A DNA stretch of 17,318 bases from a virus. The stretch lies in UHGV virus genome UHGV-0074612. One strand, given 5' to 3'. The notes beneath the pieces were generated by a model. It was not told the origin of the DNA. It ran no database searches and worked only from the letters and a program-made list of their open reading frames with translations. The position numbers were made by a program, and so were the translations under genes. Shown here piece after piece: positions 1,909-17,268 of this stretch; position 1 is the stretch's first letter, and every line of letters begins with the position of its first letter.

Positions 1909-2352
1909 TTACGGAGAGTTGCCGGGTTCTTTAATGTGCAAACGAGGCTCACCATCTTTTGGTTCAGGCCACTGGCGCTCCATGTTGATCTTCAATTTAT
2001 TTTCCATAGCAGCGGTAATTTCAGCATCACTGATACCAGCACGGCGCTGTGCATCCCACAACAGGAACTGCATATCAGCCCACTCGCTGAGATCGTCAGG
2101 TTCGGCTGCGGCTTCCAGAGCCTCTTTTGAGAGGTGTTTCAGTGGACCAATGGGGCCAACGCAGCCAAATGTGGAGTCAGACCATTTGGCATGCTCGTGG
2201 CGAACCCGCTCGCGTTCCAGTGAGGCGAGAGCGATTTTAAATGCTGTAAGCATGTGTGCTTGATCGTTGTCGAGTCCGAATGGCATTTCATCTCGTGCTG
2301 ACTCAATACTGGTAATCGTATTTTGTAGCCATTCCATGGTAAAAGTGCTCAT
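1909..2352 (-). CDS. Hypothetical early-left protein (147 aa)
   Basis: ATG overlaps the stop of the upstream gene (ATGA at 2349-2352), indicating translational coupling in the leftward operon. No confident family assignment. Confidence 0.6.
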   Translation of the reverse strand: MSTFTMEWLQNTITSIESARDEMPFGLDNDQAHMLTAFKIALASLERERVRHEHAKWSDSTFGCVGPIGPLKHLSKEALEAAAEPDDLSEWADMQFLLWDAQRRAGISDAEITAAMENKLKINMERQWPEPKDGEPRLHIKEPGNSP

Positions 2353-2720
2353 CGTAAAATATCCTCTATACTGGTAAGCCCTTCATTATTTAGCCAGATC
2401 ATTGCGTCATCCGGCAACTTGCTGTCTGGTTTTGCGTTTTTGAGAGAGGAACTCAGTCGCTTAATCCACATTGTCAGCTCAGTAATGCGCCTGTGTTTGC
2501 CTTCCAGCTCAACGCGCAGCCTCCCTACCGTTAGTGCAATATCCTCGTTCTCCTTGTCGCGGCGTTTGACGTATTGCTGGTTTCTTTCCCGTTCATCCAG
2601 CAGTGCCAGCACAATCGATGGTGTTACCAGCTCATGGAAAAGGTCCGCGTCAAATCCCCAGTTGTCATGCATTGCCTGCTCTGCCGCTTCACGCAGTGCC
2701 TGAGAGTTAATTTCGCTCAC
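2349..2720 (-). CDS. Ead/Ea22-like protein (123 aa)
   Basis: N-terminus MSEINSQALREAAEQAMHDNWGFDADLFHELVTPSIV resembles the Ead/Ea22 family N-terminus from memory; start overlaps the stop of the upstream gene. Confidence 0.7.
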   Translation of the reverse strand: MSEINSQALREAAEQAMHDNWGFDADLFHELVTPSIVLALLDERERNQQYVKRRDKENEDIALTVGRLRVELEGKHRRITELTMWIKRLSSSLKNAKPDSKLPDDAMIWLNNEGLTSIEDILR

Positions 2721-2938
2721 TTCGAACCTCTCTGTTTACTGATAAGCTCCAGATCTTCCTGGCAACTTGCACAAGTCCGACAACCCTGAACGGCCAGGCG
2801 TCTTCGCTCATCTATGGGATCGCCACACTCACAACAATGAGTGGCAGATATAGCCTGGTGGTTCAGGCGGCGCATTTTTATTGCTGTGTTGCGCTGTAAT
2901 TCTTCAATTTCTGATGCTGAATCAATGATGTCTGCCAT
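2717..2938 (-). CDS. TraR/DksA-family C4 zinc-finger protein (73 aa)
   Basis: C-terminal CxxC(x17)CxxC: CCECGDPIDERRRLAVQGCRTCASC, typical of TraR/DksA-like zinc fingers. Confidence 0.75.
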   Translation of the reverse strand: MADIIDSASEIEELQRNTAIKMRRLNHQAISATHCCECGDPIDERRRLAVQGCRTCASCQEDLELISKQRGSK

Positions 2939-3036
2939 CTTCCATTAATCCCTGAATTGTTGGTTAATACGCTTGAGGGTGAATGCGAATAATAAAAAAG
3001 GAGCCTGTAGCTCCCTGATGATTTTGCTTTTCATAT

Positions 3037-3318
3037 TCACCGTTCCTTAAAGACGCCGTTTAACATGCCGATCGCCAGGCTTAAATGAGTCGGTGTGAAT
3101 CCCATCAGCGTTACCGTTTCGCGGTGCTTCTTCAGTACGCTACGGCAAATGTCATCGACGTTTTTATCCGGAAACTGCTGTCTGGCTTTTTTGATTTCAG
3201 AATTAGCCTGACGGGCAATACTGCGAAGGGCGTTTTCTTGCTGAGGTGTCACTGAACAAGTCCCATGTCGGCAAGCATAAGCACACAGAATATGAAGCCC
3301 GCTGCCAGAAAAATGCAT
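3037..3318 (-). CDS. Hypothetical ORF (93 aa); doubtful
   Basis: Open frame only; no recognisable Shine-Dalgarno ahead of the ATG at 3318; overlaps the coupled small ORF 3249..3332 in another frame. Confidence 0.35.
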   Translation of the reverse strand: MHFSGSGLHILCAYACRHGTCSVTPQQENALRSIARQANSEIKKARQQFPDKNVDDICRSVLKKHRETVTLMGFTPTHLSLAIGMLNGVFKER

Positions 3319-3332
3319 TCAGTGGTTGTCAT
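3249..3332 (-). CDS. Candidate 27-aa hydrophobic peptide MTTTECIFLAAGFIFCVLMLADMGLVQ
   Basis: Its ATG overlaps the TGA of the orf63-like gene (ATGA at 3329-3332); uninterrupted hydrophobic core. Not in the ORF track because it is under 60 aa. Confidence 0.3.
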   Translation of the reverse strand: MTTTECIFLAAGFIFCVLMLADMGLVQ

Positions 3333-3520
3333 ACCTGGTCTCTCTCATCTGCTTCTGCTTTCGCCACCATCATTTCCAGCTTTTGTGAAAGGGATGCGGC
3401 TAACGTATGAAATTCTTCGTCTGTTTCTACTGGTATTGGCACAAACCTGATTCCAATTTGAGCAAGGCTATGTGCCATCTCGATACTCGTTCTTAACTCA
3501 ACAGGAGATGCTTTGTGCAT
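3329..3520 (-). CDS. Lambda orf63-like small protein (63 aa)
   Basis: Size and position immediately downstream of the orf60a-like gene and exo; sequence feels lambda-like from memory. Confidence 0.7.
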   Translation of the reverse strand: MHKASPVELRTSIEMAHSLAQIGIRFVPIPVETDEEFHTLAASLSQKLEMMVAKAEADERDQV

Positions 3521-3681
3521 ATAGCCCCTCGTTTATTATTTATCTCCTCAGCCAGCCGCTGTGCTTTCAGTGGATTTCGGATAACAGAAAGGCCGGGAAA
3601 TACCCAGCCTCGCTTTGTAACGGAGTAGACGAAAGTGATTGCGCCTACCCGGATATTATCGTGAGGATGCTTCATCGCCAT
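3493..3681 (-). CDS. Lambda orf60a-like small protein (60-62 aa)
   Basis: Directly downstream of exo in the leftward operon; alternative start at Met3 (3675) would give 60 aa. Confidence 0.7.
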
Positions 3682-4352
3682 TGCTCCCCAAATACAAAAC
3701 CAATTTCAGCCAGTGCCTCGTCCATTTTTTCGATGAACTCTGGCACCATTTCGTCAAAACCAGCCATGTATTTTTCATCCCGCTCGACCACGACATAATG
3801 CAGGCCTTCACGCTTCATACGTGGGTCATAGTTGGCAAAGTACCAGGCATCTTTTCGCGTCGCCCACATGCTGAATTGCACCTGGGCCATGTAAGCTGAT
3901 TTTATTGCCTCGAAACCACCGAGCCGGAATTTCATGAAATCCCGGGAGGTAAACGGGCATTTCAGTTCAAGGCCGTTGCCGTCACTGCATAAACCATCGG
4001 GAGAGCAGGCGGTGCGCATACTTTCGTCGCGATAGATGATCGGGGATTCAATAACATTTACGCCGGAAGTGAACTCAAACAGGGTTCTGGCGTCGTTCTC
4101 GTACTGTTTTCCCCAGGCCAGCGCTTTAGCGTTAACTTCCGGAGCCACACCGGTGCAAACCTCAGCCAGCAGGGTGTGGAAGTAGGACATTTTCATGTCA
4201 GGCCACTTCTTTCCTGATCGGGGCTTTGCTATCACGTTGTGAACTTCTGAAGCGGTGATGACGCCGAGCCGTAATTTGTGCCATGCATCATCCCCCTGTT
4301 CGACAGCTCTCACGTCGATCCCGGTACGCTGCAGGATAATGTCCGGTGTCAT
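3672..4352 (-). CDS. exo: Lambda exonuclease (Red alpha)
   Basis: 226-aa [43 protein letters not shown]..., lambda Exo length and sequence as I recall; start overlaps the bet stop. Confidence 0.97.
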
Positions 4353-5134
4353 GCTGCCACCTTCTGCTCAGTGGCTTTCTGTTTCAGGAATCCGAGAGCT
4401 TTCACTGCTTCGACCTGTGTCAGTTCTGACGATGCGCGAATGTCGCGGCGAAATATCTGGGAACAGAGCGGCAATAAGTCGTCATCCCATGTTTTATCCA
4501 GGGCAATCAGCAGAGTGTTAATCTCCTGCATGGTTTCATCGTTAACCGGAGTGATGTCGCGTTCCGGCTGACGTTCTGCAGTGTATGCGGTATTTTCGAC
4601 AATGCGCTCGGCTTCATCCTTGTCATAGATACCAGCAAATCCGAAGGCCAGACGGGCACACTGAATCATGGCTTTATGACGTAACATCCGTTTGGGATGC
4701 GACTGCCACGGCCCCGTGATTTCTCTGCCTTCGCGGGTTTTGAATGGTTCGCGGCGGCATTCATCCATCCACTCGGTAACGCAGATCGGATGATTACGGT
4801 CCTTGCGGTAAATCCGGCATGTGCAGGATTCATTGTCCTGCTCAAAGTCCATGCCATCAAACTGCTGGTTTTCATTGATGATACGGGACCAGCCATCAAC
4901 GCCCACCACCGGAACGATGCCGTTCTGCTTGTCAGGGAAGGCGTAAATTTCTTTCGTCCACGGATTAAGGCCGTACTGGTTGGCGACGATCAACAATGCG
5001 ATGAACTGCGCATCGCTGGCATCGCCTTTAAATGCCGTCTGGCGAAGAGTGGTGATCAGTTCCTGTGGGTCGACAGAATCCATGCCGACACGTTCAGCCA
5101 GCTTCCCAGCCAGCGTTGCGAGTGCTGTACTCAT
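4349..5134 (-). CDS. bet: Single-strand annealing protein Bet (Red beta)
   Basis: 261-aa [53 protein letters not shown]..., lambda Bet length and sequence as I recall. Confidence 0.97.
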
Positions 5135-5139
5135 CCGTT

Positions 5140-5208
5140 TTATACCTCTGAATCAATATCAACCTGGTGGTGAGCAATGGTTTCAACCATGTACCGGATG
5201 TGTTCTGC
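5140..5208 (-). pseudogene. gam: 3'-terminal remnant of gam (last 22 codons plus stop)
   Basis: Minus strand encodes AEHIRYMVETIAHHQVDIDSEV then stop, 5 nt upstream of the bet ATG; matches the lambda Gam C-terminus from memory. Upstream codons (NVS...) diverge and a stop occurs at 5221-5223. Confidence 0.7.
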
Positions 5209-5228
5209 TACATTACTGAGCTAATAAC

Positions 5229-5260
5229 AGGCCTGCTGGTAATCGCAGGCCTTTTTATTT
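5229..5260 (+). terminator. Rho-independent terminator, lambda tR2-like
   Basis: 8-bp stem AGGCCTGC/GCAGGCCT (5229-5236/5245-5252), 8-nt loop, then TTTTTATTT; located just upstream of ninB as tR2 is in lambda. Confidence 0.75.
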
Positions 5261-5276
5261 GGGGGAGAGGGAAGTC

Positions 5277-5717
5277 ATGAAAAAACTAACCTTTGAAATT
5301 CGATCTCCAGCACATCAGCAAAACGCTATTCACGCAGTACAGCAAATCCTTCCAGACCCAACCAAACCAATCGTAGTAACCATTCAGGAACGCAACCGCA
5401 GCTTAGACCAAAACAGGAAGCTATGGGCCTGCTTAGGTGACGTCTCTCGTCAGGTTGAATGGCATGGTCGCTGGCTGGATGCAGAAAGCTGGAAGTGTGT
5501 GTTTACCGCAGCATTAAAGCAGCAGGATGTTGTTCCTAACCTTGCCGGGAATGGCTTTGTGGTAATAGGCCAGTCAACCAGCAGGATGCGTGTAGGCGAA
5601 TTTGCGGAGCTATTAGAGCTTATACAGGCATTCGGTACAGAGCGTGGCGTTAAGTGGTCAGACGAAGCGAGACTGGCTCTGGAGTGGAAAGCGAGATGGG
5701 GAGATCGGGCTGCATGA
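5277..5717 (+). CDS. ninB: NinB (Orf family recombination mediator)
   Basis: Track ORF 5259..5717; ATG at 5277 gives MKKLTFEIRSPAHQQNAIHAVQQILPDP..., lambda NinB-like, preceded by GGAGAGGG. Confidence 0.93.
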   Translation: MKKLTFEIRSPAHQQNAIHAVQQILPDPTKPIVVTIQERNRSLDQNRKLWACLGDVSRQVEWHGRWLDAESWKCVFTAALKQQDVVPNLAGNGFVVIGQSTSRMRVGEFAELLELIQAFGTERGVKWSDEARLALEWKARWGDRAA

Positions 5718-6241
5718 CTATCAAATCAAATACGCCAGCACACGACAAGGACTGCTGGCAAACGCCGCTTTGGCTTTTTGATGCACTGGATATTGAGTTT
5801 GGATTCTGGCTGGATTCGGCAGCGAGCGACAAAAATGCTCTGTGTGCTCACTGGCTAACTGAGGCCGACGACGCGCTCAATTCTGAGTGGGTAAGCCACG
5901 GTGCAATCTGGAATAACCCACCGTACAGCAATATCAGGCCGTGGGTGGAAAAAGCCGCTGAGCAGTGCATACAACAGCGACAGACGGTAGTTATGCTTGT
6001 GCCAGAGGATATGTCAGTCGGATGGTTCAGCAAGGCTCTGGAGAGTGTCGACGAAGTTCGCATTATCACTGATGGACGGATTAATTTTATCGAACCATCG
6101 ACAGGGCTGGAGAAGAAGGGAAACAGCAAAGGCTCCATGCTGCTGATTTGGCGACCGTTCATCAGTCCTCGACGGATGTTTACTACCGTATCCAAAGCGG
6201 CATTGATGGCGATCGGGCAGGGCGTCAGGAGGGCGGCATGA
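5714..6241 (+). CDS. Phage N6-adenine DNA methyltransferase (orphan, no cognate nuclease seen)
   Basis: Start ATGA overlaps the ninB stop; product [26 protein letters not shown]... with NPPY catalytic motif (WNNPPYS). No restriction endonuclease candidate nearby. Confidence 0.85.
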
Positions 6242-6414
6242 GGCGACAGCGACGAAGTTTCACCGACATCATCTGCGAAAACTGCAAATACCTTCCAACG
6301 AAACGCTCCAGAAATAAACGCAAGCCAATCCCAAAAGAATCTGACGTAAAAACCTTCAATTACACAGCTCACCTGTGGGATATCCGGTGGCTAAGATATC
6401 GTGCGAGGAAATGA
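6238..6414 (+). CDS. ninE: NinE
   Basis: Internal ATG at 6238 of track ORF 6148..6414 gives [34 protein letters not shown]..., lambda NinE-like; ATGA overlap with the methyltransferase stop. Confidence 0.8.
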
Positions 6415-6758
6415 CAATGGATTATTCACAGTTAAGTGATTTTGAAATTAACAGAATGGTAGGAGACATAATTTTTAAAGGCCTTTGGGCAAGTAAACCG
6501 GAAACATCAGGGAATAACACCAACAAATGGTATTACGGAAATGCTGATACAACTTTTGAGCCATTAAATCATTTGCCTGACTACTGCAATGATCCGAGCG
6601 CTTCATGGCCGATTATTGAGAAATACAGGATTTCTATCTTAGACCAGTTAACTGAATGGTGTGTGGATGCAAAAGGCGTAAGCCCAATATTTGATACCAG
6701 ACCTCTCCGCGCCGCCATGATTGTCTTTCTCCTGATGCAGGAGGCCAATAATGCTTAG
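6411..6758 (+). CDS. Hypothetical nin-region protein (about 114 aa)
   Basis: Track ORF 6375..6758; in-frame ATGs at 6411 (ATGA overlap with ninE stop) and 6417, with GAGGAA upstream. Confidence 0.65.
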
Positions 6759-6945
6759 CCCATCTCAATCCCTTCAATACCTGAAAGGAAGCATAGAGCG
6801 GGCTTCAATGTGCACAGAGTGGATTCTATCTAGGTTTAGCGCATACAGAAGATTGCCGGTAAAGGGCATGCCAAGCAAGTCGATGCTGCATATGCAAAAG
6901 AATGCGCGCTGGAAGGTATGGCGAGAACACAGGTTATCTGGCTGA
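6751..6945 (+). CDS. Hypothetical small nin-region protein (64 aa)
   Basis: ATG at 6751 preceded by GGAGG with about a 6-nt spacer; fills the gap before rusA. Confidence 0.45.
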
Positions 6946-6964
6946 AAGAGGGGGTTATTAAGGC

Positions 6965-7327
6965 GTGAATACCTACAGCATCACATTACCCTGGCCTCCG
7001 AGCAATAACCGCTACTACCGGCATAATCGCGGGCGCACGCACATCAGCGCAGAAGGGCAGGCATACCGTGATAACGTCGCCCGAATCATTAAAAACGCAA
7101 TGCTGGATATCGGCCTGGCTATGCCTGTGAAAATCCGCATTGAGTGCCACATGCCGGATCGCCGTCGCCGTGACCTGGATAATCTGCAAAAAGCCGCTTT
7201 TGACGCACTCACTAAAGCAGGTTTCTGGCTGGATGATGCTCAGGTCGTTGATTACCGCGTTGTGAAGATGCCTGTTACCAAAGGTGGGAGGCTGGAACTG
7301 ACCATCACCGAAATGGGGAATGAATGA
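6965..7327 (+). CDS. rusA: Holliday-junction resolvase RusA
   Basis: 120-aa [28 protein letters not shown]...; RusA sequence as I recall; GTG start with GAGGGGG upstream. Confidence 0.95.
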
Positions 7328-7464
7328 TGTTTGAGTTTAATATGGCAGAACTTCTTCGCCACCGCTGGGGGCGTCTGCGCTTATATCGTTTCCCCGGTTC
7401 TGTTTTGACCGATTACCGAATACTGAAGAATTACGCCAAAACCCTGACAGGAGCAGGAGTATGA
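7324..7464 (+). CDS. ylcG: Small protein, YlcG-like (46 aa)
   Basis: ATGA overlap with the rusA stop; translation [46 protein letters not shown] matches my recollection of DLP12 YlcG. Under the track size cutoff. Confidence 0.5.
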
Positions 7465-7549
7465 AGTCAGAGATAACAATCAACTAATACTGTTTTGTTG
7501 ATTTTTGCTTGTAATTGGCGTTTTGGTCTGATTTTTGTGGAGTAAGTTG

Positions 7550-7933
7550 ATGCGTGATATTCAGATGGTTCTTGAGCGTTGGGGAGCGTGGGCGGCTAAT
7601 AATCATGAAGATGTGACCTGGTCGTCCATTGCCGCCGGTTTTAAGGGATTAATTCCTTCAAAAGTAAAATCTCGCCCGCAATGTTGTGACGATGACGCGA
7701 TGATCATTTGCGGGTGCATGGCCCGCCTGAAAAAGAACAACAGCGATTTGCACGATTTATTAGTAGATTATTATATAGTCGGTATGACATTCATGTCACT
7801 GGCAGGTAAGCATTGCTGCTCTGATGGTTATATCGGGAAAAGGTTACAAAAGGCTGAGGGCATAATTGAAGGGATGTTAATGGCATTAGATATCCGGTTA
7901 GAGATGGATATCGTTGTTAATAACTCTAATTAA
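7550..7933 (+). CDS. Late-gene antiterminator Q (QuuD-like)
   Basis: Track ORF 7535..7933; ATG at 7550 after GGAGTAAG gives [24 protein letters not shown]... with a Cys-rich zinc-binding region, resembling the DLP12 QuuD antiterminator. Confidence 0.88.
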
Positions 7934-7955
7934 TACGCCAATTATTTACTAAAAG

Positions 7956-7984
7956 TTATTAAAAATGGGGCGTTGAAACGCCCC
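7956..7984 (-). terminator. Intrinsic terminator for the porin transcript (minus strand)
   Basis: GC-rich 7-bp stem GGGGCGT/ACGCCCC (7967-7973/7978-7984) with tetraloop, followed on the minus strand by ATTTTTAATAAC. Confidence 0.6.
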
Positions 7985-8121
7985 CAAAAATAAAGGGTAA
8001 TATATAACAGAAGGTTTATATAGTTAGAAGCAAGGTTGTGCTTCTAAAGGAAGTGGCTTGAGGGAGCCACTTATATGTTGGGGAGGCAAAGCCTCCCACA
8101 ACATATCTTTTAGTAATCAAA
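7956..8121 (-). ncRNA. Highly structured porin 3' region; candidate IpeX-like small RNA
   Basis: Four consecutive stem-loops between the porin stop (8122) and the terminator: 8077-8104, 8051-8072, 8024-8047, 7967-7984. I recall that the DLP12 sRNA IpeX maps just downstream of nmpC; exact boundaries not determinable here. Confidence 0.3.
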
Positions 8122-9204
8122 TTAGAACTGGTAAACCATACCTACAGCAACGATATCATCGGTAGCAACGCCAGATGCTTTCGTGAAATCGCTCTTATCA
8201 ATCAGGTTGATTTTGTAGTCAACAAAAGTGGACATATTTTTGTTGAAGTAATAGGTTGCACCTACATCAACATATTCAACCAGGTCCTGATCACCCCAAA
8301 CACCCAAGTCTTTTCCTTTAGAATGCAGGTAAGCAACGGATGGACGCAGGCCGAAGTCGAACTGATATTGTGCAACAGCTTCGAAGTTTTGTGCTTTGTT
8401 GGCAATATGGTTATTACCAAAAACAGTCATGTTCTGGGTTTCAGAATAGGTGGTGGCCAGATAGATGTTGTTCGCATCATATTTCAGACCAGCTGCCCAT
8501 ACTTCAGCATTTTGACCAGAAGCATTCAGACCGTTGTTACCGTAGATAACCTGATTATTAGTGCGATCAGATTTAGCATAGGTTGCACCCACGCCGAATC
8601 CTTCATACTCATAAGTAGTTGAGAAACCGAAACCATCGCCATTAGCTTCAGTTACTTCATTTCGGTCATTTTTGCCCTGATACTGAGCTGCAAAGTTCAG
8701 GCCATCAACCAGACCAAAGAAGTCGTTGTTACGATAAGTTGCAACACCTGTGGTGCGACCAGTCATGAATACATCTGTTTGGGTCCAGGTATCGCCACCG
8801 AATTCTGGCAGAACGTCGGTCCATGCACCGATGTCGTATGCTACACCGTAGTTACGGCCGTAATCGATGGAGCCGTAGTCACCGAATTTCAGGCCAGCGA
8901 AGGCAAGACGGGTTTTATCTTTGGAGGAACCTTGAGATTCAGCGCGGTTGCCTTTGAATTCATATTCCCACTGACCGAAACCAGTCAGTTGATCGTTGAT
9001 TTGGGTTTCACCTTTGAAGCCAAGACGGGCATAAGTAGTATCACCATCATCTGCATCATTAGAGGAGAAGTAGTGCTTAGCATTAACTTTCCCGTACAGA
9101 TCCAGCTTGTTACTGTCTTTATTATAAATTTCAGCTGCCTGAGCAGACATCGCCATCAGTACTGATGCAGCTACAGCAGAAATTGCCACTGTTAATTTTT
9201 TCAT
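8122..9204 (-). CDS. nmpC: OmpC/OmpF-family general porin, prophage-encoded (NmpC/Lc-like)
   Basis: 360-aa ORF with signal peptide [23 protein letters not shown] then AEIYNKD..., C-terminal VGMVYQF ending in Phe; located between Q and the holin on the opposite strand, as nmpC is in DLP12. Confidence 0.93.
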
Positions 9205-9632
9205 CGTGAGCCCTTTTTTTTGAACTATTATTAAAAAATGATGTCACTGCGCGATAAATATTCATCTAATCAATGTGAATATTTCAAGATGTAAGTTTTG
9301 GTTTCTCGTTTGATTTGTGAAGTAGATCTCTATTTTTATCTGAACTTTTTTCTATCGAATCCTATTCATGGCTCTTGACTGAATAAAAATAAATCTATTA
9401 GCCAATTTATATTAATGGCTGTTATTTATAAGTGCTCTATAATTTGAAGGTTCAATTTAAATTGACTAAAAATAACGCTGGAAATTATTTGTTGGTTATT
9501 TGTTGAGATTTGCTTATGTATTTGTAGTGGTGTTTTCAATACTCGGTAGCATTCTCGCAAATATCATTTAGTGGTTTACGTACGTAAAAAATTGGTTATG
9601 CTGTTAAGAGTGGTTACTTCGTCACACAGCTT

Positions 9633-9666
9633 AAACCCGCCGTCGAGCGGGTTTTTCCATTTTTTG
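9633..9666 (+). terminator. Rho-independent terminator inside the porin-holin intergenic region (tR'-like)
   Basis: 8-bp stem AAACCCGC/GCGGGTTT (9633-9640/9647-9654), 6-nt loop, then TTCCATTTTTTG. No plus-strand gene ends upstream of it. Confidence 0.7.
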
Positions 9667-9777
9667 AGTCTCGATATTAGCTGATAACCCAATACCTGAG
9701 TTATTCACTGACTCCGAGTCTGTTACGTTTCGTAGTATTCCCTCAATTTACACCCGCTTTGTCTGCGAGGTGGGGTT

Positions 9778-9993
9778 ATGAAATCCATGGATAAGTTAAC
9801 AACGGGTGTCGCCTATGGCACCTCAGCAGGTAGTGCCGGGTACTGGTTTTTACAGCTGCTCGATAAAGTCACGCCCTCACAGTGGGCAGCAATAGGTGTG
9901 CTGGGTAGCCTGGTATTTGGCCTGCTGACGTACCTGACAAACCTTTATTTCAAGATTAAAGAAGATAAGCGCAAGGCTGCGAGAGGTGAATAA
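9778..9993 (+). CDS. Phage-21-type pinholin (S21/EssD-like) with dual start motif
   Basis: 71-aa [29 protein letters not shown]...; Met1/Met4 dual start, two TMDs, charged C-terminus; GAGGTGG upstream. Confidence 0.92.
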
Positions 9994-10490
9994 TGCCTCC
10001 ATCATTACGAAAAGCCGTTGCTGCTGCTATTGGTGGCGGAGCAATTGCTATAGCATCAGTGTTAATCACTGGCCCAAGTGGTAACGATGGTCTGGAAGGT
10101 GTCAGCTACATACCATACAAAGATATTGTTGGTGTATGGACTGTATGTCACGGGCATACAGGAAAAGACATCATGCTCGGTAAAACGTATACCAAAGCAG
10201 AATGCAAAGCCCTCCTGAATAAAGACCTTGCCACGGTCGCCAGACAAATTAACCCGTACATAAAAGTTGATATACCGGAAACAACGCGCGGCGCTCTTTA
10301 CTCGTTCGTTTACAACGTGGGCGCTGGCAATTTCAGAACATCGACACTTCTTCGCAAAATAAACCAGGGCGATATCAAAGGCGCATGTGATCAGCTACGT
10401 CGCTGGACATATGCTGGCGGTAAGCAATGGAAAGGTCTCATGACTCGTCGTGAGATTGAGCGTGAAATCTGTTTGTGGGGTCAGCAATGA
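9993..10490 (+). CDS. SAR endolysin (phage-21 R / RrrD-like lysozyme)
   Basis: 165-aa ORF with N-terminal Gly/Ala-rich signal-anchor-release segment [20 protein letters not shown] followed by a lysozyme domain; start overlaps the holin stop. Confidence 0.92.
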
Positions 10491-10945
10491 ACAGAGTAAC
10501 CGCGATTATCTCCGCTCTGGTTATCTGCATCATCGTCTGCCTGTCATGGGCTGTTAATCATTACCGTGATAACGCCATTACCTACAAAGCCCAGCGCGAC
10601 AAAAATGCCAGAGAACTGGAGAAGGCGAACGCCACCATCGCTGACATGCGGAAGCGTCAACGTGATGTAGCAGAACTCGACGCAAGATACACAAAGGAGC
10701 TTGCTGATGCTAACGCGACTATCGAAAGTCTCCGTGCTGATGTTTCTGCTGGGCGTAAGCGCCTGCAAGTCGCCGCCACCTGTGCAAAGTCAACGACCGG
10801 AGCCAGCGGCATGGGCGATGGAGAAAGCCCAGGACTTACAGCAGATGCTGAACTCAATTATTACCGTCTCCGAAGTGGAATCGACAAGATAACCGCGCAG
10901 GTTAACTACCTGCAGGAATACATCAGGACGCAATGCCTGAAATAA
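10487..10945 (+). CDS. Spanin inner-membrane subunit Rz
   Basis: ATG at 10487 (ATGA overlap with endolysin stop) gives [21 protein letters not shown]..., an N-terminal TMD followed by a periplasmic coiled-coil-like region. Confidence 0.88.
10701..10892 (+). CDS. Spanin outer-membrane lipoprotein Rz1, embedded in Rz in the +1 frame
   Basis: 63-aa ORF wholly inside Rz; signal peptide with lipobox VSAC followed by a proline-rich segment [13 protein letters not shown]. Confidence 0.8.
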
Positions 10946-10976
10946 TTTTTTTGCAAATCACAAAGTCCATTTAATG

Positions 10977-11000
10977 AGCCTCGCGATGCGGGGCTTTTTG
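10977..11000 (+). terminator. Lysis-operon terminator 1
   Basis: 8-bp stem AGCCTCGC/GCGGGGCT (one G-U pair) with GAT loop then TTTTG. Confidence 0.55.
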
Positions 11001-11006
11001 CAATAA

Positions 11007-11031
11007 ATGCGTACCGCAACGCATGTTTTTT
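11007..11031 (+). terminator. Lysis-operon terminator 2
   Basis: 6-bp stem ATGCGT/ACGCAT, 6-nt loop, followed by GTTTTTT. Confidence 0.6.
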
Positions 11032-11146
11032 ACACCGAACCTGCCCCTTTGGAATGGGCCTTTGAGGATACCAGTTAGTGCTGGCGAGCCTCGGTGGGCT
11101 GGTTTCCTGTGCGGCAAAGGTTCATTTCAAAGAGTAGGTACACGCT

Positions 11147-11644
11147 ATGAAATCATTAACCCTCTTCAATCAACCAATTCGTATCGGTGAAGATGGCATG
11201 ATCTGCCTCACTGATATGTGGAAAGCCAGTGGTAAAAGTGAATCTGAATCGCCTTACCACTACCTGCGAAACAAGCAGACCAAAGAGTTCTTAGCCGAGC
11301 TGGAGAAAAACCACGAATCTGTGGTTTTTACTGAGCGCGGTGTACACGGTGGAACATATGGCGGGAAGTTTGTTGCTTACGATTATGCGGCTTGGTTAAA
11401 CCCCGGGTTCAAGTACGCGGCCTATAAAGTCCTCGATGACTACTTCACCGGAGAACTTCAGCATCGCAACAGCTTAAGTGCGCAGCTCAACATGAAATGT
11501 CATGAGTTTGACCAGAAGAAAGACATGGCGAGCTTCTGCGGACAAGGGCTGGCAGCATGGCGCTATACGAAGCCAGTGTTGGTCGCTGAGATTAACTCCC
11601 TGGCTAACCAGCTGCAGATTACGATCCCCGGGCTTCCGGGATGA
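11147..11644 (+). CDS. KilA-N/Bro-N-like domain protein (165 aa)
   Basis: N-terminal FNQPIRIGEDGMICLTDMWKASGK fits the KilA-N pattern (F..IR...DG..........A.G) by eye. Confidence 0.65.
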   Translation: MKSLTLFNQPIRIGEDGMICLTDMWKASGKSESESPYHYLRNKQTKEFLAELEKNHESVVFTERGVHGGTYGGKFVAYDYAAWLNPGFKYAAYKVLDDYFTGELQHRNSLSAQLNMKCHEFDQKKDMASFCGQGLAAWRYTKPVLVAEINSLANQLQITIPGLPG

Positions 11645-11910
11645 GTGATCGTGTCATTGAATGCGCCTCCAGAGCGGGGCGCGACTTCTCAGAGTTCATG
11701 AAAGGCGAGAAGGGCATGATGGAAGCATTGGCCTCGGTGGATGAGTTTGGCGAGCAGCTGCGCCTCAACGGCTGTGTCAATCATCACTTTGTTAGCTACA
11801 TGATGCGGAACTCGATCATGCAGGCATTCATGGACATGGCAAAAGCCGAGAGGAAAGAAGAGCGCCGGCGTAAGCGAGCGGAAGCAAAAGCAAAAGCAAA
11901 AGTGAAGTAG
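11641..11910 (+). CDS. Hypothetical protein (89 aa) with Lys/Arg/Ala/Glu-rich C-terminal tail
   Basis: ATGA overlap with the stop of the KilA-N-like gene; C-terminus AKAERKEERRRKRAEAKAKAKVK. Confidence 0.6.
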   Translation: MSDRVIECASRAGRDFSEFMKGEKGMMEALASVDEFGEQLRLNGCVNHHFVSYMMRNSIMQAFMDMAKAERKEERRRKRAEAKAKAKVK

Positions 11911-11947
11911 CCATTACAAAGCCCATTTACGGGTGGGCTTGATAATG
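11911..11947. repeat. Hairpin-containing element, copy A
   Basis: CCATTACAAAGCCCATTTACGGGTGGGCTTGATAATG immediately after the TAG of the 89-aa gene; stem AAGCCCA/TGGGCTT (11919-11925/11934-11940). Confidence 0.5.
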
Positions 11948-12134
11948 AAACCGGAATTTATTCTGGGCCACCAGTTAACGGCAGTACCACGAAACAACCC
12001 AAGCCAGTAAGTGGGGAAATAACACCGGCAGCCACTGAAAGATGAACCTCCTGCCTTATGGCAAAAAAGATTCTTTGTGGTGGCGGACTGATGGAAAGAC
12101 ATCCTAATTTCAGCCAAACATTGAAGGAGTTGTT

Positions 12135-12206
12135 ATGTCAGCAGAAGGTTTCAATAACCCATCAAAATTCCGGGATGAGTGGGATAGCAGCGTAAAGAGT
12201 AAGTGA
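12135..12206 (+). CDS. Candidate 23-aa ORF MSAEGFNNPSKFRDEWDSSVKSK
   Basis: AAGGAG Shine-Dalgarno 6 nt upstream of the ATG; stop immediately precedes copy B of the hairpin element. Confidence 0.3.
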   Translation: MSAEGFNNPSKFRDEWDSSVKSK

Positions 12207-12207
12207 T

Positions 12208-12249
12208 GCCATCACAAAAGCCATTCCCTACAGAGTGGCTTTGATAATG
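12208..12249. repeat. Hairpin-containing element, copy B
   Basis: GCCATCACAAAAGCCATTCCCTACAGAGTGGCTTTGATAATG; shares the CCAT(Y)ACAAA(A)GCC ... GGCTT(T)GATAATG framework with copy A, with base changes that still pair in the stem. Confidence 0.5.
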
Positions 12250-12264
12250 GCTTATACCCTACAC

Positions 12265-13587: not shown

Positions 13588-13704
13588 ATGAAGGTTAATA
13601 AAAAGAAACTTGCCGAAATTTTCAACGTGGATCCGCGAACGATTGAACGCTGGCAGTCTCAGGGACTCCCTTGCGTCTCCGGAGGTGGCAGCGGGCCATC
13701 ATGA
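13588..13704 (+). pseudogene. Terminase small subunit (Nu1/gp1-like), N-terminal 38-codon stub
   Basis: [38 protein letters not shown] then stop; resembles the Nu1 N-terminal DNA-binding segment (lambda MEVNKKQLADIFGASIRTIQNWQEQGMPVLRGGG). The frame ends where terminase A homology begins. Confidence 0.75.
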
Positions 13705-14570
13705 ATGCGATGGGCAGTGACTACATCCGCGAGGTGAATGTGGTGAAGTCTGCCCGTGTTGGTTATTCCAAAATGCTGCTGGGTGTTTATGCCTACTTCA
13801 TAGAGCATAAGCAGCGCAACACCCTTATCTGGTTGCCGACGGATGGTGATGCCGAGAACTTTATGAAAACCCACGTTGAGCCGACTATTCGTGATATTCC
13901 GTCGCTGCTGGCGCTGGCCCCGTGGTATGGCAAAAAGCACCGGGATAACACGCTCACCATGAAGCGTTTCACTAATGGGCGTGGCTTCTGGTGCCTGGGC
14001 GGTAAAGCGGCAAAAAACTACCGTGAAAAGTCGGTGGATGTGGCGGGTTATGATGAACTTGCTGCTTTTGATGATGATATTGAACAGGAAGGCTCTCCGA
14101 CGTTCCTGGGTGACAAGCGTATTGAAGGCTCGGTCTGGCCAAAGTCCATCCGTGGCTCCACGCCCAAAGTGAGAGGCACCTGCCAGATTGAGCGTGCAGC
14201 CAGTGAATCCCCGCATTTTATGCGTTTTCATGTTGCCTGCCCGCACTGCGGGGAGGAGCAGTATCTTAAATTTGGCGACAAAGAGACGCCGTTTGGCCTC
14301 AAATGGACGCCGGATGACCCCTCCAGCGTGTTTTATCTCTGCGAGCATAATGCCTGCGTCATCCGCCAGCAGGAGCTGGACTTTACTGATGCCCGTTATA
14401 TCTGCGAAAAGACCGGGATCTGGACCCGTGATGGCATTCTCTGGTTTTCGTCATCCGGTGAAGAGATTGAGCCGCCGGACAGTGTGACCTTTCACATCTG
14501 GACGGCGTACAGCCCGTTCACCACCTGGGTGCAGATTGTCAAAGACTGGATGAAGACGAAAGGGGATACC
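13689..14570 (+). pseudogene. Terminase large subunit A, internal fragment (about residues 58-350 of lambda gpA)
   Basis: Track ORF 13671..14630; [50 protein letters not shown]... through ...[14 protein letters not shown] is lambda gpA as I recall. It lacks the gpA N-terminus and C-terminal half; the frame then runs into J-derived sequence out of frame. Confidence 0.85.
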
Positions 14571-14571
14571 C

Positions 14572-15883
14572 GAACACGGCACTGGTCGGCGTGCAGGTGG
14601 ACTCGGAGCAGTTCGGCAGCCAGCAGGTGAGCCGTAATTATCATCTGCGCGGGCGCATTCTGCAGGTGCCGTCGAACTATAACCCGCAGACGCGGCAATA
14701 CAGCGGTATCTGGGATGGAACGTTTAAGCCAGCATACAGCAACAACATGGCCTGGTGTCTGTGGGATATGCTGACCCATCCGCGCTACGGCATGGGGAAA
14801 CGTCTTGGTGCAGCAGATGTGGATAAATGGACGCTGTATGTCATCGGCCAGTACTGCGACCAGTTGGTACCGAATGGTTTTGGCGGCACGGAGCCGCGCA
14901 TCACCTGTAATGCCTGGCTGACCACACAGCGTAAGGCGTGGGATGTGCTCAGTGATTTCTGCTCGGCGATGCGCTGTATGCCGGTATGGAACGGGCAGAC
15001 GCTGACGTTCGTGCAGGACCGACCATCAGATAAGGTGTGGACCTATAACCGCAGTAATGTGGTGATGCCGGATGATGGCGCGCCGTTCCGCTACAGCTTC
15101 AGCGCCCTGAAGGACCGCCATAATGCCGTTGAGGTGAACTGGATTGACCCGAACAACGGCTGGGAGACGGCGACAGAGCTTGTTGAAGATACGCAGGCCA
15201 TTGCCCGTTACGGTCGTAATGTCACGAAGATGGATGCCTTTGGCTGTACCAGCCGGGGGCAGGCACACCGCGCCGGGCTGTGGCTGATTAAAACGGAACT
15301 GCTGGAGACGCAGACCGTGGATTTCAGCGTGGGTGCTGAAGGGCTTCGCCATGTACCGGGCGATGTCATTGAAATCTGCGATGATGACTATGCCGGTATC
15401 AGCACCGGTGGTCGCGTGCTGGCGGTGAACAGCCAGACCCGGACGCTGACGCTCGACCGTGAAATCACGCTGCCATCTTCCGGCACCACGCTGATAAGCC
15501 TGGTTGACGGGCAGGGGAGTCCGGTCAGCGTGGAGGTTCAGTCCGTCACCGACGGACTTAAGGTGAAAGTGAACCGGGTTCCTGACGGCGTTGCAGAATA
15601 CAGTGTGTGGGGGCTGAAGTTGCCGACGTTGCGTCAGCGCCTGTTCCGCTGTGTGAGTATCCGTGAGAACGATGACGGCACGTATGCCATCACTGCCGTG
15701 CAGCATGTACCGGAAAAAGAAGCCATCGTGGATAACGGGGCGCACTTTGACGGCGACCAGAGCGGCACGGTGAATGATGTCACGCCGCCAGCGGTGCAGC
15801 ACCTGACTGCCGAAGTCACCGCAGACAGCGGGGAATATCAGGTGCTGGCGCGCTGGGACACGCCGAAGGTGGTGAAGGGGGTG
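14572..15883 (+). pseudogene. Tail tip protein J, internal fragment
   Basis: Track ORF 14591..16687 begins at a GTG inside J-like sequence ([28 protein letters not shown]...). J homology runs to ...[12 protein letters not shown]; the J N-terminal third and C-terminal receptor-binding region are absent. Confidence 0.85.
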
Positions 15884-16687
15884 AAGGCACATTACAGAAA
15901 TGGAGGTCTGTTCTACCGTTCCTCAAGAGATGGCTATGGTTTTGAGGAAGACTGGGCAGAAGTTTATACCTCGAAAAATCTTCCACCAGAAAGCTACCCA
16001 GTCGGCGCACCAATCCCGTGGCCATCAGATACCGTTCCGTCTGGTTATGCCCTGATGCAGGGGCAGACTTTTGACAAATCTGCATACCCGAAACTTGCAG
16101 CCGCTTATCCGTCAGGCGTGATCCCTGATATGCGTGGCTGGACGATTAAGGGCAAACCTGCCAGTGGTCGCGCCGTATTGTCTCAGGAACAGGACGGCAT
16201 TAAATCGCACACCCACAGCGCCAGCGCATCCAGTACGGATTTGGGGACGAAAACCACATCGTCGTTTGATTACGGAACCAAATCCACGAATAACACCGGG
16301 GCGCATACCCATAGTATTAGCGGGACCGCAAATAGTGCCGGCGCGCACCAACACAAGAGTTCCGGTGCATTTGGTGGCACGAACACGAGCATTTTCCCTA
16401 ATGGTTATACCGCGATTTCAAATCCAAGCGCGGGGATTATGAGCACAACAAGCGGTAGTGGTCAGACTCGTAATGCAGGGAAGACATCATCAGATGGTGC
16501 TCATACCCACTCGCTGTCCGGCACTGCTGCAAGCGCAGGCGCACATGCACATACTGTCGGTATTGGTGCTCATACGCACTCCGTTGCGATTGGCTCACAT
16601 GGACACACCATCACCGTTAACGCTGCGGGTAACGCGGAAAACACCGTCAAAAACATCGCATTTAACTATATTGTGAGGCTTGCATAA
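15884..16687 (+). pseudogene. Side tail fibre (Stf-like) C-terminal region, fused in frame to the J fragment
   Basis: ...[45 protein letters not shown]... with repeated Gly/His boxes ([30 protein letters not shown]) and C-terminus [11 protein letters not shown], typical of lambda Stf and T4 gp37-type fibre tips. Confidence 0.8.
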
Positions 16688-17268
16688 TGGCATTCAGAAT
16701 GAGTGAACAAGCACGGACCATAAAAATTTATAATCTGCTGGCCGGAACTAATGAATTTATTGGTGAAGGTGACGCATATATTCCGCCTCATACAGGTCTG
16801 CCAGCAAACAGTACCGATATTGCACCACCAGATATTCCGGCAGGCTTCGTGGCTGTTTTCAACAGTGATGAGGCATCGTGGCATCTCGTTGAAGACCATC
16901 GGGGGAAAACGGTTTATGACGTAGCGTCAGGGGACGAGTTATTTATTTCTGAACTCGGTCCGTTACCGGAAAATGTTACCTGGTTATCGCCGGGAGGGGA
17001 ATATCAGAAGTGGAACGGCACAGCCTGGGTGAAGGATACGGAAGCAGAAAAACTGTTCCGGATCCGGGAGGCGGAAGAAACAAAAAACAGCCTGATGCAG
17101 ATAGCCAGTGAGCATATAGCGCCGCTTCAGGATGCTGTGGATCTGGAGATCGCAACGGAGGAAGAAACCTTGTTGCTGGAAGCCTGGAAAAAGTATCGGG
17201 TGTTGCTGAACCGTGTTGATACATCAACTGCACCGGATATTGAATGGCCAGTAGCACCTATAGGGTAA
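16687..17268 (+). CDS. tfa: Tail fibre assembly protein Tfa
   Basis: 193-aa [42 protein letters not shown]...; start overlaps the stop of the upstream tail-fibre ORF; lambda Tfa-like length and sequence as I recall. Confidence 0.9.

What the first reader, a model, noticed from the sequence alone, without database searches (positions are those of the whole stretch)
14591..16687. 698-codon open frame: J central region fused in frame to a His-box tail-fibre tip
J homology stops at ...PKVVKGV (about 15883) and the frame continues without a stop into a side-tail-fibre C-terminal region rich in GAHTHS-type His/Gly boxes. Base composition drops at the join (15884-16000 is noticeably more AT-rich). 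The J receptor-binding C-terminus is replaced, and the ORF has no proper start (first in-frame initiator is a GTG within J). It is unclear whether this is a neutral scar or an expressed chimeric adhesin.
Basis: partly seen in the sequence, partly recalled or inferred. Interest (0 to 1): 0.5.

Follow-up and report, generated by a model that had tools for sequence, protein, structure and literature searches.

The report
Deletion-made J–Stf tail-fibre gene remnant
The 698-codon frame is real, but it is a leftover of two deletions in a decayed lambda-like prophage of E. coli, which by chance joined the middle of the tail-tip gene J in frame to the tip of the side-tail-fibre gene; this is ordinary prophage decay and most likely not a working adhesin.

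Summary
ORF 14591-16687 consists of lambda gpJ residues ~212/220-651 (95-98% DNA identity to intact J genes) joined at 15882-15884, through a 3-nt TGA microhomology, to residues 866-1117 of an StfR-type side tail fibre (96-100% identity). This Stf part is a close homologue of the T4 gp37 tip, with seven HxH boxes. An intact tfa follows.

Upstream, a terminase-A fragment is joined out of frame to J at 14567, and a 38-codon Nu1 stub is joined to A. The immunity and replication region is missing, and no head or other tail genes are present. The element lies on the bio side of att-lambda.

The same ORF occurs in at least 15 E. coli or gut-metagenome contigs. The junction occurs in none of 5,426 complete E. 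coli genomes, and the fused arrangement in none of 50,697 phage records.

Both breakpoints cut through domains. The attachment parts of both J and Stf are gone, and GTG 14591 has no ribosome-binding site.

Verdict: a neutral deletion scar of the kind seen in Qin, Rac and DLP12. It may serve as a recombination reservoir. A small residual chance of expression remains through stop-start overlaps.

Unexplained aside: the same breakpoints recur with different partners in unrelated remnants.

The parts
13588..13704 (+). Nu1 (small terminase) stub: 38 codons with its own ATG. It is joined out of frame to the A fragment, and its TGA (13702-13704) overlaps ATG 13701 of the A' frame (ATGA).
   Evidence: translation and overlap; phrog_57 terminase small subunit, E 1.7e-10; sequence.
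13689..14578 (+). Fragment of terminase large subunit gene A (lambda nt 879-1768, A aa ~57-353). The called ORF is 13701-14630 (309 aa). It runs out of frame into J and stops at TGA 14628-14630.
   Evidence: 98.4% DNA identity, 99% protein identity to lambda A 56-353; GpA_ATPase.
14567..14569 (+). Junction 1 (A | J), with crossover inside TAC. It is out of frame. The microhomology is 3 nt against lambda J, or up to 7 nt (GGGATAC) if the parental J carried the GGA-TAC allele.
14567..15884 (+). J fragment: gpJ residues ~212-651. It holds most of the hub domains plus the first ~43 of 104 positions of the first Ig/FNIII domain. The N-terminal 211 residues are missing, as are FNIII-2, the helical shaft, the central fibre and the LamB-binding domain.
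   Evidence: 8IYK gpJ 220-651, E 5e-293; domain names from PMC11101478.
14591..16687 (+). The 698-codon chimeric open frame (J'::Stf').
   Evidence: P0001, identical, 698 aa.
14627..14630 (+). GTGA: GTG (codon 13 of the chimeric frame) overlaps the TGA stop of the A' frame. This is the only plausible route to translation, by termination-reinitiation.
15882..15884 (+). Junction 2 (J | Stf), with crossover inside TGA. It is in frame: ...KGV|KAHY...
15882..16687 (+). C-terminal 252 residues of an StfR-type side tail fibre (aa 866-1117 of WP_106087011). They comprise the last ~30 residues of a knob domain, then the collar, the HxH needle and the receptor-binding tip.
   Evidence: Collar PF07484, Phage_fiber; T4 gp37 2XGF residues 27-242 aligned to ORF aa 467-698.
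16687..17268 (+). Intact tail-fibre assembly chaperone gene tfa (193 aa). Its start overlaps the stop of the chimeric frame (TAATG), as in native stf-tfa.
   Evidence: 94% identical to lambda Tfa 1-192.

Best explanation
The frame is a by-product of prophage decay. A lambda-like prophage at the att-lambda side of the bio operon suffered several RecA-independent, microhomology-mediated deletions. One removed about 4.8 kb, from codon 651 of J through lom to codon 866 of stf, and happened to preserve the reading frame (a one-in-three chance). Another removed about 14.4 kb, from codon ~353 of terminase gene A to codon ~212 of J, out of frame. That deletion took away the start of J and all head genes and the remaining tail genes. 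Further deletions removed most of Nu1 and the whole immunity and replication region. The result is a long open frame without its own start signals. Its product lacks the parts of J that build the tail tip and bind LamB, and it lacks the N-terminal collar that fastens Stf to a tail. With no tail to join, it cannot act as a phage adhesin for this element. Shown here: the anatomy, the breakpoints, the parental genes, the absence of partner genes, and the absence from phage genomes. Inferred: that it is not translated, or only marginally, and is selectively neutral. Its one biological role documented for relatives is passive. The 0.8 kb stf tip plus tfa are 93-100% identical to genes of live lambdoid phages, and infecting phages can copy them by homologous recombination, as shown for the Qin and Rac stf/tfa remnants (PMC3945230).
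For: Both halves match separate intact genes. J is 94.9-97.9% identical to phage and prophage J genes up to 15884 and no further. Stf is 96.5-100% identical to full-length stfR from 15882 on. The intact J-lom-stfR-tfa order is seen in L011. Junction microhomologies are short: TGA at junction 2 and TAC at junction 1. Junction 2 lies at position 43 of 104 of Pfam Ig_J, and 30 residues before the end of an Stf knob domain. The gene content of the element has no V, H, M, L, K, I or head genes, and bet abuts ninB. GTG 14591 has no SD, and promoter-like hits do not exceed shuffled expectation: 8 against 10.3 +/- 3.6. No phage record holds J and Stf in one place (0 of 50,697). Junction 2 is absent from 5,426 complete E. 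coli genomes and was found in 1 IMG/VR contig, which also has junction 1. Analogous J'-stf'-tfa remnants with other breakpoints, annotated as pseudogenes, sit in Qin, Rac and DLP12 positions in complete genomes. About two thirds of those examined are out of frame. Chimeras that keep the J N-terminus (P0009, P0011, P0025) also lie in degraded remnants. Sister copies show 2 synonymous SNPs in the ORF, while variants P0002 and P0003 each carry one amino-acid change and P0004 several, so there is no signal of purifying selection.
Against: The frame has stayed open over 2.1 kb in all copies seen. These copies are very close relatives (at most 0.15% divergence), so this says little either way. tfa, the chaperone that the Stf tip needs, is intact and positioned as in a native operon. 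Q, S, R and Rz upstream are intact, so a late transcript is conceivable. The stops of the Nu1' and A' frames each overlap a start codon of the next frame (ATGA, GTGA), which could allow coupled translation. Chimeric Stf remnants of e14 are reported to be expressed and to block T2 adsorption (PMC12529663). No expression data exist for this element.
Confidence: 0.8

Rival explanations
1. The chimeric frame is expressed and serves the host. From a Q-dependent or read-through transcript, translation would be coupled Nu1' -> A' -> GTG 14627. With Tfa, the gp37-like tip trimerises and binds an outer-membrane porin or LPS, masking a receptor against T-even or lambdoid phages. Such receptor masking is the role proposed for StfE2 of e14.
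For: tfa is intact and overlaps the stop of the frame, and the ATGA and GTGA stop-start overlaps link the upstream frames. The tip is ~70% identical to T4 gp37, with all seven HxH boxes conserved. Q, S, R and Rz are intact. There is a precedent for an expressed chimeric Stf remnant that blocks adsorption (PMC12529663). In-frame J'::Stf' products are numerous in E. coli genomes.
Against: No SD or promoter signal was found. There is no signal peptide or known export route for a cytoplasmic fibre fragment. The product would carry ~430 residues of truncated J hub with half an Ig domain, which is likely to misfold. There is no pin recombinase and there are no P-segment inversion repeats. No PADLOC model matches. 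Out-of-frame equivalents are at least as common in complete genomes. The element is rare: one IMG/VR contig, and none of 5,426 complete genomes. The many in-frame examples are partly an ascertainment effect of a protein search.
Confidence: 0.1
2. The arrangement is a native hybrid central fibre: a J hub with an Stf-type tip, from a viable phage lineage that later lost its 5' end.
For: One metagenome contig (L009, protein P0005, 917 aa) carries the same junction 2 behind a complete J N-terminus and M-L-K-I. J and Stf are both trimers, and full-N-terminus J::Stf proteins exist (P0007, P0009, P0011, P0020).
Against: None of 50,697 phage records has J and Stf in one gene. The join cuts an Ig domain at position 43 of 104 and an Stf knob domain 30 residues from its end. 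The full-N-terminus chimeras examined lie in remnants without head genes. L009 is a 5-kb k-mer assembly. Its J 5' part is a different allele from the window and its 3' part is identical, so it may be an assembly or recombination mosaic. Elements downstream of the hub that lambda needs to open the tail (FNIII-2, helical shaft, central fibre; PMC11101478) are absent.
Confidence: 0.03
3. The long frame is an assembly or sequencing artefact, either a chimeric contig or a missed frameshift.
For: Lambdoid prophages are repeated within genomes and can confuse assemblers.
Against: The same two junctions and the identical 698-aa product occur on at least 15 contigs from ENA, NCBI and IMG/VR samples. 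These include contigs of 120 kb and 1.3 Mb, with independent SNPs. Junctions with 3-nt overlap cannot arise from k-mer graph collapse.
Confidence: 0.01

Closest known systems
J'-stf'-tfa remnants of the E. coli cryptic lambdoid prophages Qin, Rac and DLP12 (nohQ/J'/stfQ'-tfaQ-pinQ and equivalents)
   Same: A packaging-gene fragment is joined to an internal J fragment, which is joined to an stf C-terminal fragment and followed by an intact tfa. Head and tail genes are lost. RefSeq annotates the pieces as incomplete pseudogenes. One Qin variant (L012) even shares the left J breakpoint with the window to within 3 nt.
   Different: The chromosomal site differs: the element sits next to ybhB-bioA and has a lambda-type Int/Xis. 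The left partner differs (A rather than Nu1). The J|Stf breakpoint differs (J651|Stf866), is in frame, and is absent from all 5,426 complete genomes. No pin invertase lies downstream.
Lambda gpJ central tail fibre (PDB 8IYK, 8XCG)
   Same: ORF aa 1-432 align to gpJ 220-651 at ~96% identity.
   Different: The ORF lacks gpJ residues 1-211 and residues 652-1132. The second stretch comprises the rest of FNIII-1, FNIII-2, the helical shaft, the central straight fibre and the LamB-binding domain.
Lambda/Rac side tail fibre Stf/StfR and the T4 gp37 receptor-binding tip (PDB 2XGF)
   Same: The collar domain, seven HxH boxes, the tip and the C-terminal ...[11 protein letters not shown] are all present, and the tfa chaperone lies downstream. 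The tip is 69% identical to lambda orf-314 and matches T4 gp37 at E 4e-84.
   Different: The N-terminal 865 residues are absent, including the collar domain that fastens Stf to the tail between gpV and gpM (PMC12617516). The variable segment between HxH boxes 3 and 4 differs from both T4 and the StfR reference.
StfE2/StfP2 chimeric fibre proteins of e14, made by Pin inversion (PMC12529663)
   Same: A chimeric Stf-derived protein encoded in a cryptic prophage beside a tfa gene.
   Different: Those chimeras are Stf-Stf fusions made reversibly by a serine invertase at 16-bp inverted repeats. Here the fusion is J-Stf, made by an irreversible deletion. Neither the repeats nor an invertase is present.

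Membership tests
TipJ / lambda gpJ central tail fibre | N-terminal region (gpJ 1-~211, Pfam FNIII-A_GpJ PF24801) with its own start after gene I | tested here: not met
   J homology starts at lambda nt 16138 (codon ~212). terL sequence lies upstream, and PF24801 is absent although present in full-length relatives.
TipJ / lambda gpJ central tail fibre | Hub core (Phage-tail_3 PF13550) | tested here: met
   PF13550 E 1.1e-43, full length 1-162 of 164; 8IYK 220-651.
TipJ / lambda gpJ central tail fibre | C-terminal fibre and receptor-binding domain (PF24489, PF09327, PF12421 in relatives) | tested here: not met
   Homology ends at gpJ 651. Ig_J matches positions 1-43 of 104 only, and none of the C-terminal Pfam families hit.
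TipJ / lambda gpJ central tail fibre | Tail-gene neighbourhood (H-M-L-K-I upstream) | tested here: not met
   The genes upstream are Nu1', A', DUF1398, KilA-N and the lysis cassette.
Stf/StfR side tail fibre (gp37-type tip) | N-terminal tail-attachment domain ('prophage tail fiber N-terminal domain') | tested here: not met
   Stf homology begins at residue 866 of 1117.
Stf/StfR side tail fibre (gp37-type tip) | Collar domain plus HxH needle and tip | tested here: met
   Collar PF07484 E 3.4e-12. 2XGF aligns at E 7e-84 with all seven HxH motifs aligned.
Stf/StfR side tail fibre (gp37-type tip) | Cognate tfa chaperone immediately downstream | tested here: met
   tfa lies at 16687-17268 and is 94% identical to lambda Tfa, with a TAATG overlap.
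Deletion remnant of a cryptic lambdoid prophage | Each piece is near-identical to an internal part of an intact gene elsewhere, with abrupt loss of homology at a short microhomology | tested here: met
Deletion remnant of a cryptic lambdoid prophage | Loss of genes essential for a viable phage | tested here: met
   There are no head or tail-shaft genes, and bet is adjacent to ninB, so cI, cro, O and P are lost.
Pin-invertible Stf system (e14 P segment, StfE2) | Serine invertase gene next to tfa | tested here: not met
   No resolvase or invertase ORF lies downstream of tfa in the sister contig L005. The next gene is an AraC-type regulator.
Pin-invertible Stf system (e14 P segment, StfE2) | Inverted crossover repeats TTGGTTTGGGAGAAGG | tested here: not met
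   0 matches in the window with up to 3 mismatches.
Pin-invertible Stf system (e14 P segment, StfE2) | Expressed product that blocks phage adsorption | not testable with these tools
   This needs expression and adsorption assays.

The most novel reading that the evidence does not exclude
The fusion is not a random scar. It would be one product of a site-preferential joining process in the late region of lambdoid prophages. The same few positions in Nu1, A, B, J and stf are joined in different combinations in unrelated remnants, and many of them carry a (G)ATAC(C)/GTACC-like motif. The window's J left end (lambda nt 16138) is joined to A here, to the portal gene in strain JX2, and to Nu1 in Qin. 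Its Stf breakpoint (M|KAHY) is joined to a different J position in another remnant. If real, some defined DNA end, pause site or nuclease preference would shape how these prophages decay, and it would repeatedly leave an stf tip plus tfa behind.
Probability: 0.3. Interest if true: 0.55.

Novelty: new member of a known kind. Interest (0 to 1): 0.22.

Why it matters
In itself it matters little. It is one more example of how lambdoid prophages decay, and it shows that long 'orphan' chimeric ORFs in prophage remnants can be explained base by base. There are two points of wider use. First, gene callers and some sources name the product 'host specificity protein J', which is misleading for host-range prediction. 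Second, the retained gp37-type tip plus tfa is a ready donor of receptor specificity for infecting lambdoid phages through homologous recombination (PMC3945230). If the breakpoint recurrence turns out to be real, it would point to a non-random mechanism of prophage erosion.

Tried and rejected
1. Native hybrid fibre. tblastn of the chimera and of a full-N-terminus chimera (P0011) against 50,697 phage records found no record with both halves in one place.

2. Pin-type invertible system. No crossover repeat and no invertase were found.

3. Known defence protein. PADLOC gave no hit for the chimera, tfa or A'.

4. Own promoter or terminator. Consensus hits do not exceed shuffled expectation.

5. 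Ribosome-binding site. No in-frame start in the first 150 codons has a convincing SD.

6. Purifying selection. Sister copies are too similar to tell: 2 synonymous SNPs in the ORF, and single non-synonymous variants in P0002 and P0003.

7. A C-to-G change 5 nt before junction 2 as a repair footprint. Rejected, because the same allele occurs in other intact J stretches.

8. Short homology as the explanation for the recurrent left J breakpoint. With lambda's J allele the observed pairs are unremarkable. With the GGGATACCC allele found in IMG/VR the homology rises to 6-8 nt, but hundreds of equally good pairs remain.

9. Shared ancestry of the elements that share the J left breakpoint. Their J segments are as divergent from each other (3.3-4.5%) as from intact J genes, so this is uninformative because of recombination.

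10. Wider search for junction 2. 0 hits in JGI metagenome contigs and 1 in IMG/VR.

11. Literature search for recurrent prophage deletion breakpoints. Nothing relevant was found.

12. Distribution of truncation points around the J left breakpoint. A spread sample of complete E. coli genomes was uninformative, because nearly all genomes also hold an intact J.

Full report
**Observation**

The window holds an open frame at 14591-16687 (+), 698 codons, whose first initiator is a GTG. Pfam finds four families in it:
- the J hub family Phage-tail_3, full length;
- only the first 43 of 104 positions of the J Ig-like domain;
- a tail Collar domain;
- a tail-fibre repeat.

Against solved structures, residues 1-432 match lambda gpJ 220-651 (8IYK, E 5e-293). 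Residues 467-698 match the receptor-binding tip of T4 gp37 (2XGF, E 4e-84). All seven HxH boxes align with those of gp37. GC falls from 0.593 in the J part to 0.444 in 15884-16000.

**Breakpoints**

Comparison with lambda and with an intact Rac-like prophage of E. coli AR436 (L004, L011) maps the pieces as follows:
- window 13689-14578 = lambda A nt 879-1768 (98.4%);
- window 14567-15884 = lambda J nt 16138-17455 (94.9%; up to 97.9% to other phage J genes);
- window 15882-16341 and 16519-17268 = stfR codon 866 onward plus tfa. The stretch 15882-16010 is 100% identical to full-length stfR genes in many genomes.

Junction 2 reads J ...GGGGG-TGA / Stf TGA-AGGCAC, a 3-nt microhomology. It is in frame (...KGV|KAHY...). 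Junction 1 reads A ...GGGGA-TAC / J TAC-CCGAAC and is out of frame. The A frame runs on to TGA 14628-14630.

A third join fuses a 38-codon Nu1 stub (13588-13704) to A codon ~57. Relative to the intact arrangement, the J-Stf deletion removed about 4.8 kb: the J C-terminus, lom and the stf 5' part. The A-J deletion removed about 14.4 kb.

**Context**

The window starts with a lambda-type integrase and excisionase, followed by exo and bet. ninB lies only 125 bp after bet, so the immunity and replication genes are gone. Then come Q, a porin gene on the opposite strand, S-R-Rz, a KilA-N gene, and DUF1398 and YlcI-like genes. After these lie the Nu1'-A'-J'::Stf'-tfa block.

In sister contigs the element is followed by an AraC-type gene, IS debris, ybhB and bioABFCD. 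That places it on the bio side of att-lambda. No head gene and no other tail gene is present.

**Distribution**

The identical 698-aa protein (P0001) is on at least 15 contigs, in E. coli isolates and human-gut metagenomes. Near-identical variants P0002-P0004 also exist. Sister copies differ from the window by 9-19 SNPs in 12.7 kb. Two of these SNPs are synonymous changes within the frame, and the differences in tfa are clustered as if by gene conversion.

- No complete E. coli genome in RefSeq (5,426) has junction 2.
- An exact 36-mer across junction 2 occurs in one IMG/VR contig, which also has junction 1, and in no JGI metagenome contig.
- No phage record joins J and Stf in one place.

**What it is**

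Each half is nearly identical to an internal part of a separate, intact gene. Homology stops abruptly at a 3-nt overlap, and the join lies inside domains on both sides. Everything that would let the product function in a virion is missing:
- the J N-terminus and its start codon;
- the J elements downstream of the hub that transmit receptor binding (PMC11101478);
- the N-terminal collar of Stf that binds the tail (PMC12617516);
- all partner tail proteins.

The best explanation is a neutral deletion scar that is in frame by chance.

The same kind of remnant, with other breakpoints and annotated as pseudogenes, is standard in Qin, Rac and DLP12 positions of complete E. coli genomes. Of the DNA junctions I inspected, the window and L010 are in frame, and L001, L002, L012/L013 and L014 are not. 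Chimeras that keep the J N-terminus (P0009, P0011, P0025) also sit in remnants without head genes.

**Could it be expressed?**

Signals are poor. GTG 14591 has no Shine-Dalgarno match, and promoter-like sites do not exceed chance.

Three points keep a small door open:
- tfa is intact and overlaps the stop of the frame, as in a native operon.
- Q and the lysis genes are intact.
- The Nu1' stop overlaps an ATG of the A' frame (ATGA, 13701-13704), and the A' stop overlaps a GTG of the chimeric frame (GTGA, 14627-14630).

A recent paper reports that chimeric Stf proteins of e14, made by Pin inversion, block T2 adsorption (PMC12529663). That system's defining parts, the invertase and the inverted repeats, are absent here. 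PADLOC has no match. I put this rival at about 0.1.

The passive role as a donor of stf/tfa sequence to infecting lambdoid phages is documented for Qin and Rac (PMC3945230). It is plausible here, given 93-100% identity to live genes.

**Unexplained aside**

Breakpoints recur.

Left end of the J fragment. This end (lambda nt 16138) is joined to A in the window, to the portal gene in strain JX2 (L002), and to Nu1 in a Qin variant (L012, and IMG/VR contigs L016, L018 and L020), always as ...GA|TACCCGAAC. The same Nu1 site is joined to another J position in L015. The same A site is joined to yet another J position in protein P0023.

Right-hand junctions. The Stf site M|KAHY is used by the window (with J651) and by L010/P0025 (with a different J site). 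J ...AVQHV(P)| is joined to four different Stf sites: L001, L002, L023/P0011 and P0008. J ...ALYWI| is joined to three.

Statistics. About 17 distinct in-frame junctions are visible in the protein hits. Random breakpoints would give about 0.2 coincident pairs per side, and I see four or five.

Possible causes. Microhomology is 2-8 nt. An IMG/VR J allele reading GGGATACCC raises the left-junction homologies to 6-8 nt, but hundreds of equally good site pairs exist. Several hot sites resemble each other: Nu1 CTGATACCGG, A GGGATACGGG, B TGGATACCCC, J GGGATACCCG, J TGGATAACGG, Stf CAGATACCGT and J ATGTACCGGA. Selection for function cannot explain the out-of-frame left junctions. J segments flanking the shared breakpoint are as divergent from each other as from intact J genes, so ancestry cannot be read from them. 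I could not identify a mechanism. I have not shown independence of all events beyond the fact that the partners differ.

**Verdict**

The finding is real and correctly described. It is an ordinary product of prophage decay and a new instance of a known kind, so interest in the fusion itself is low. The recurrence of breakpoints is the only feature that might repay a systematic survey.

Noticed in passing
window 14567 and 15882; loci L001, L002, L010, L012-L016, L018, L020, L023; proteins P0007-P0036: The same deletion breakpoints in Nu1, A, J and stf recur with different partners in unrelated prophage remnants. Many of these sites carry a (G)ATAC(C)/GTACC-like motif. Microhomology alone (2-8 nt) does not single them out.
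   Followed up: partly
window 13701-13704, 14627-14630, 16685-16689: There is a chain of stop-start overlaps: ATGA links Nu1' to A', GTGA links A' to the J'::Stf' frame, and TAATG links that frame to tfa. Two of these arose from out-of-frame deletion joins. They could allow coupled translation, or they may be coincidence.
   Followed up: partly
window 4349-5717: bet (RecT family, - strand) lies 125 bp from ninB (+ strand). The whole gam-N-cI-cro-O-P-ren interval of a lambdoid phage is missing, so the remnant has no repressor and no replication genes.
   Followed up: partly
window 8122-9204 (-): A full-length OmpC/NmpC-type porin gene (360 aa, Porin_1 E 3.6e-152) sits between Q and the lysis cassette, like nmpC in DLP12. 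The retained Stf tip belongs to a family whose lambda member binds OmpC.
   Followed up: no
window 16905-16937 and 16986-17148 (tfa): SNPs between the window and sister copies L005-L007 are tightly clustered within tfa. This suggests gene conversion from paralogous tfa genes of other prophages.
   Followed up: partly
L010 (GCA_012314925.1), 4565-12253: A DLP12-site remnant carries three apparent in-frame gene fusions in a row: holin::Z (206 aa), V::H (779 aa) and J::Stf (P0025, 750 aa).
   Followed up: no
proteins P0053, P0080, P0085: These are triple chimeras: a J hub, then a mid-Stf segment, ending in the last ~20 residues of Tfa (...[16 protein letters not shown]). They imply a further in-frame stf-to-tfa deletion.
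   Followed up: no
L009 (ENA ERZ27256437 k119_28773), 2293-5046: This is the only copy of junction 2 behind a complete J N-terminus and M-L-K-I (P0005, 917 aa). The 5' third of its J is a different allele from the window and the rest is identical. It may therefore be a metagenome assembly mosaic rather than the ancestor state.
   Followed up: partly
window 11147-11644: A KilA-N/ORF11CD3 protein (165 aa), inserted between Rz and the cos region, has a weak local hit (E 1.2e-8, 31 residues) to the PADLOC candidate defence family PDC-S22.
   Followed up: no
window 1909-2352 (-): A dATP/dGTP pyrophosphohydrolase-family gene (PF04447, E 2e-42) lies in the early-left region next to an Ead/Ea22-like gene.
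   Followed up: no
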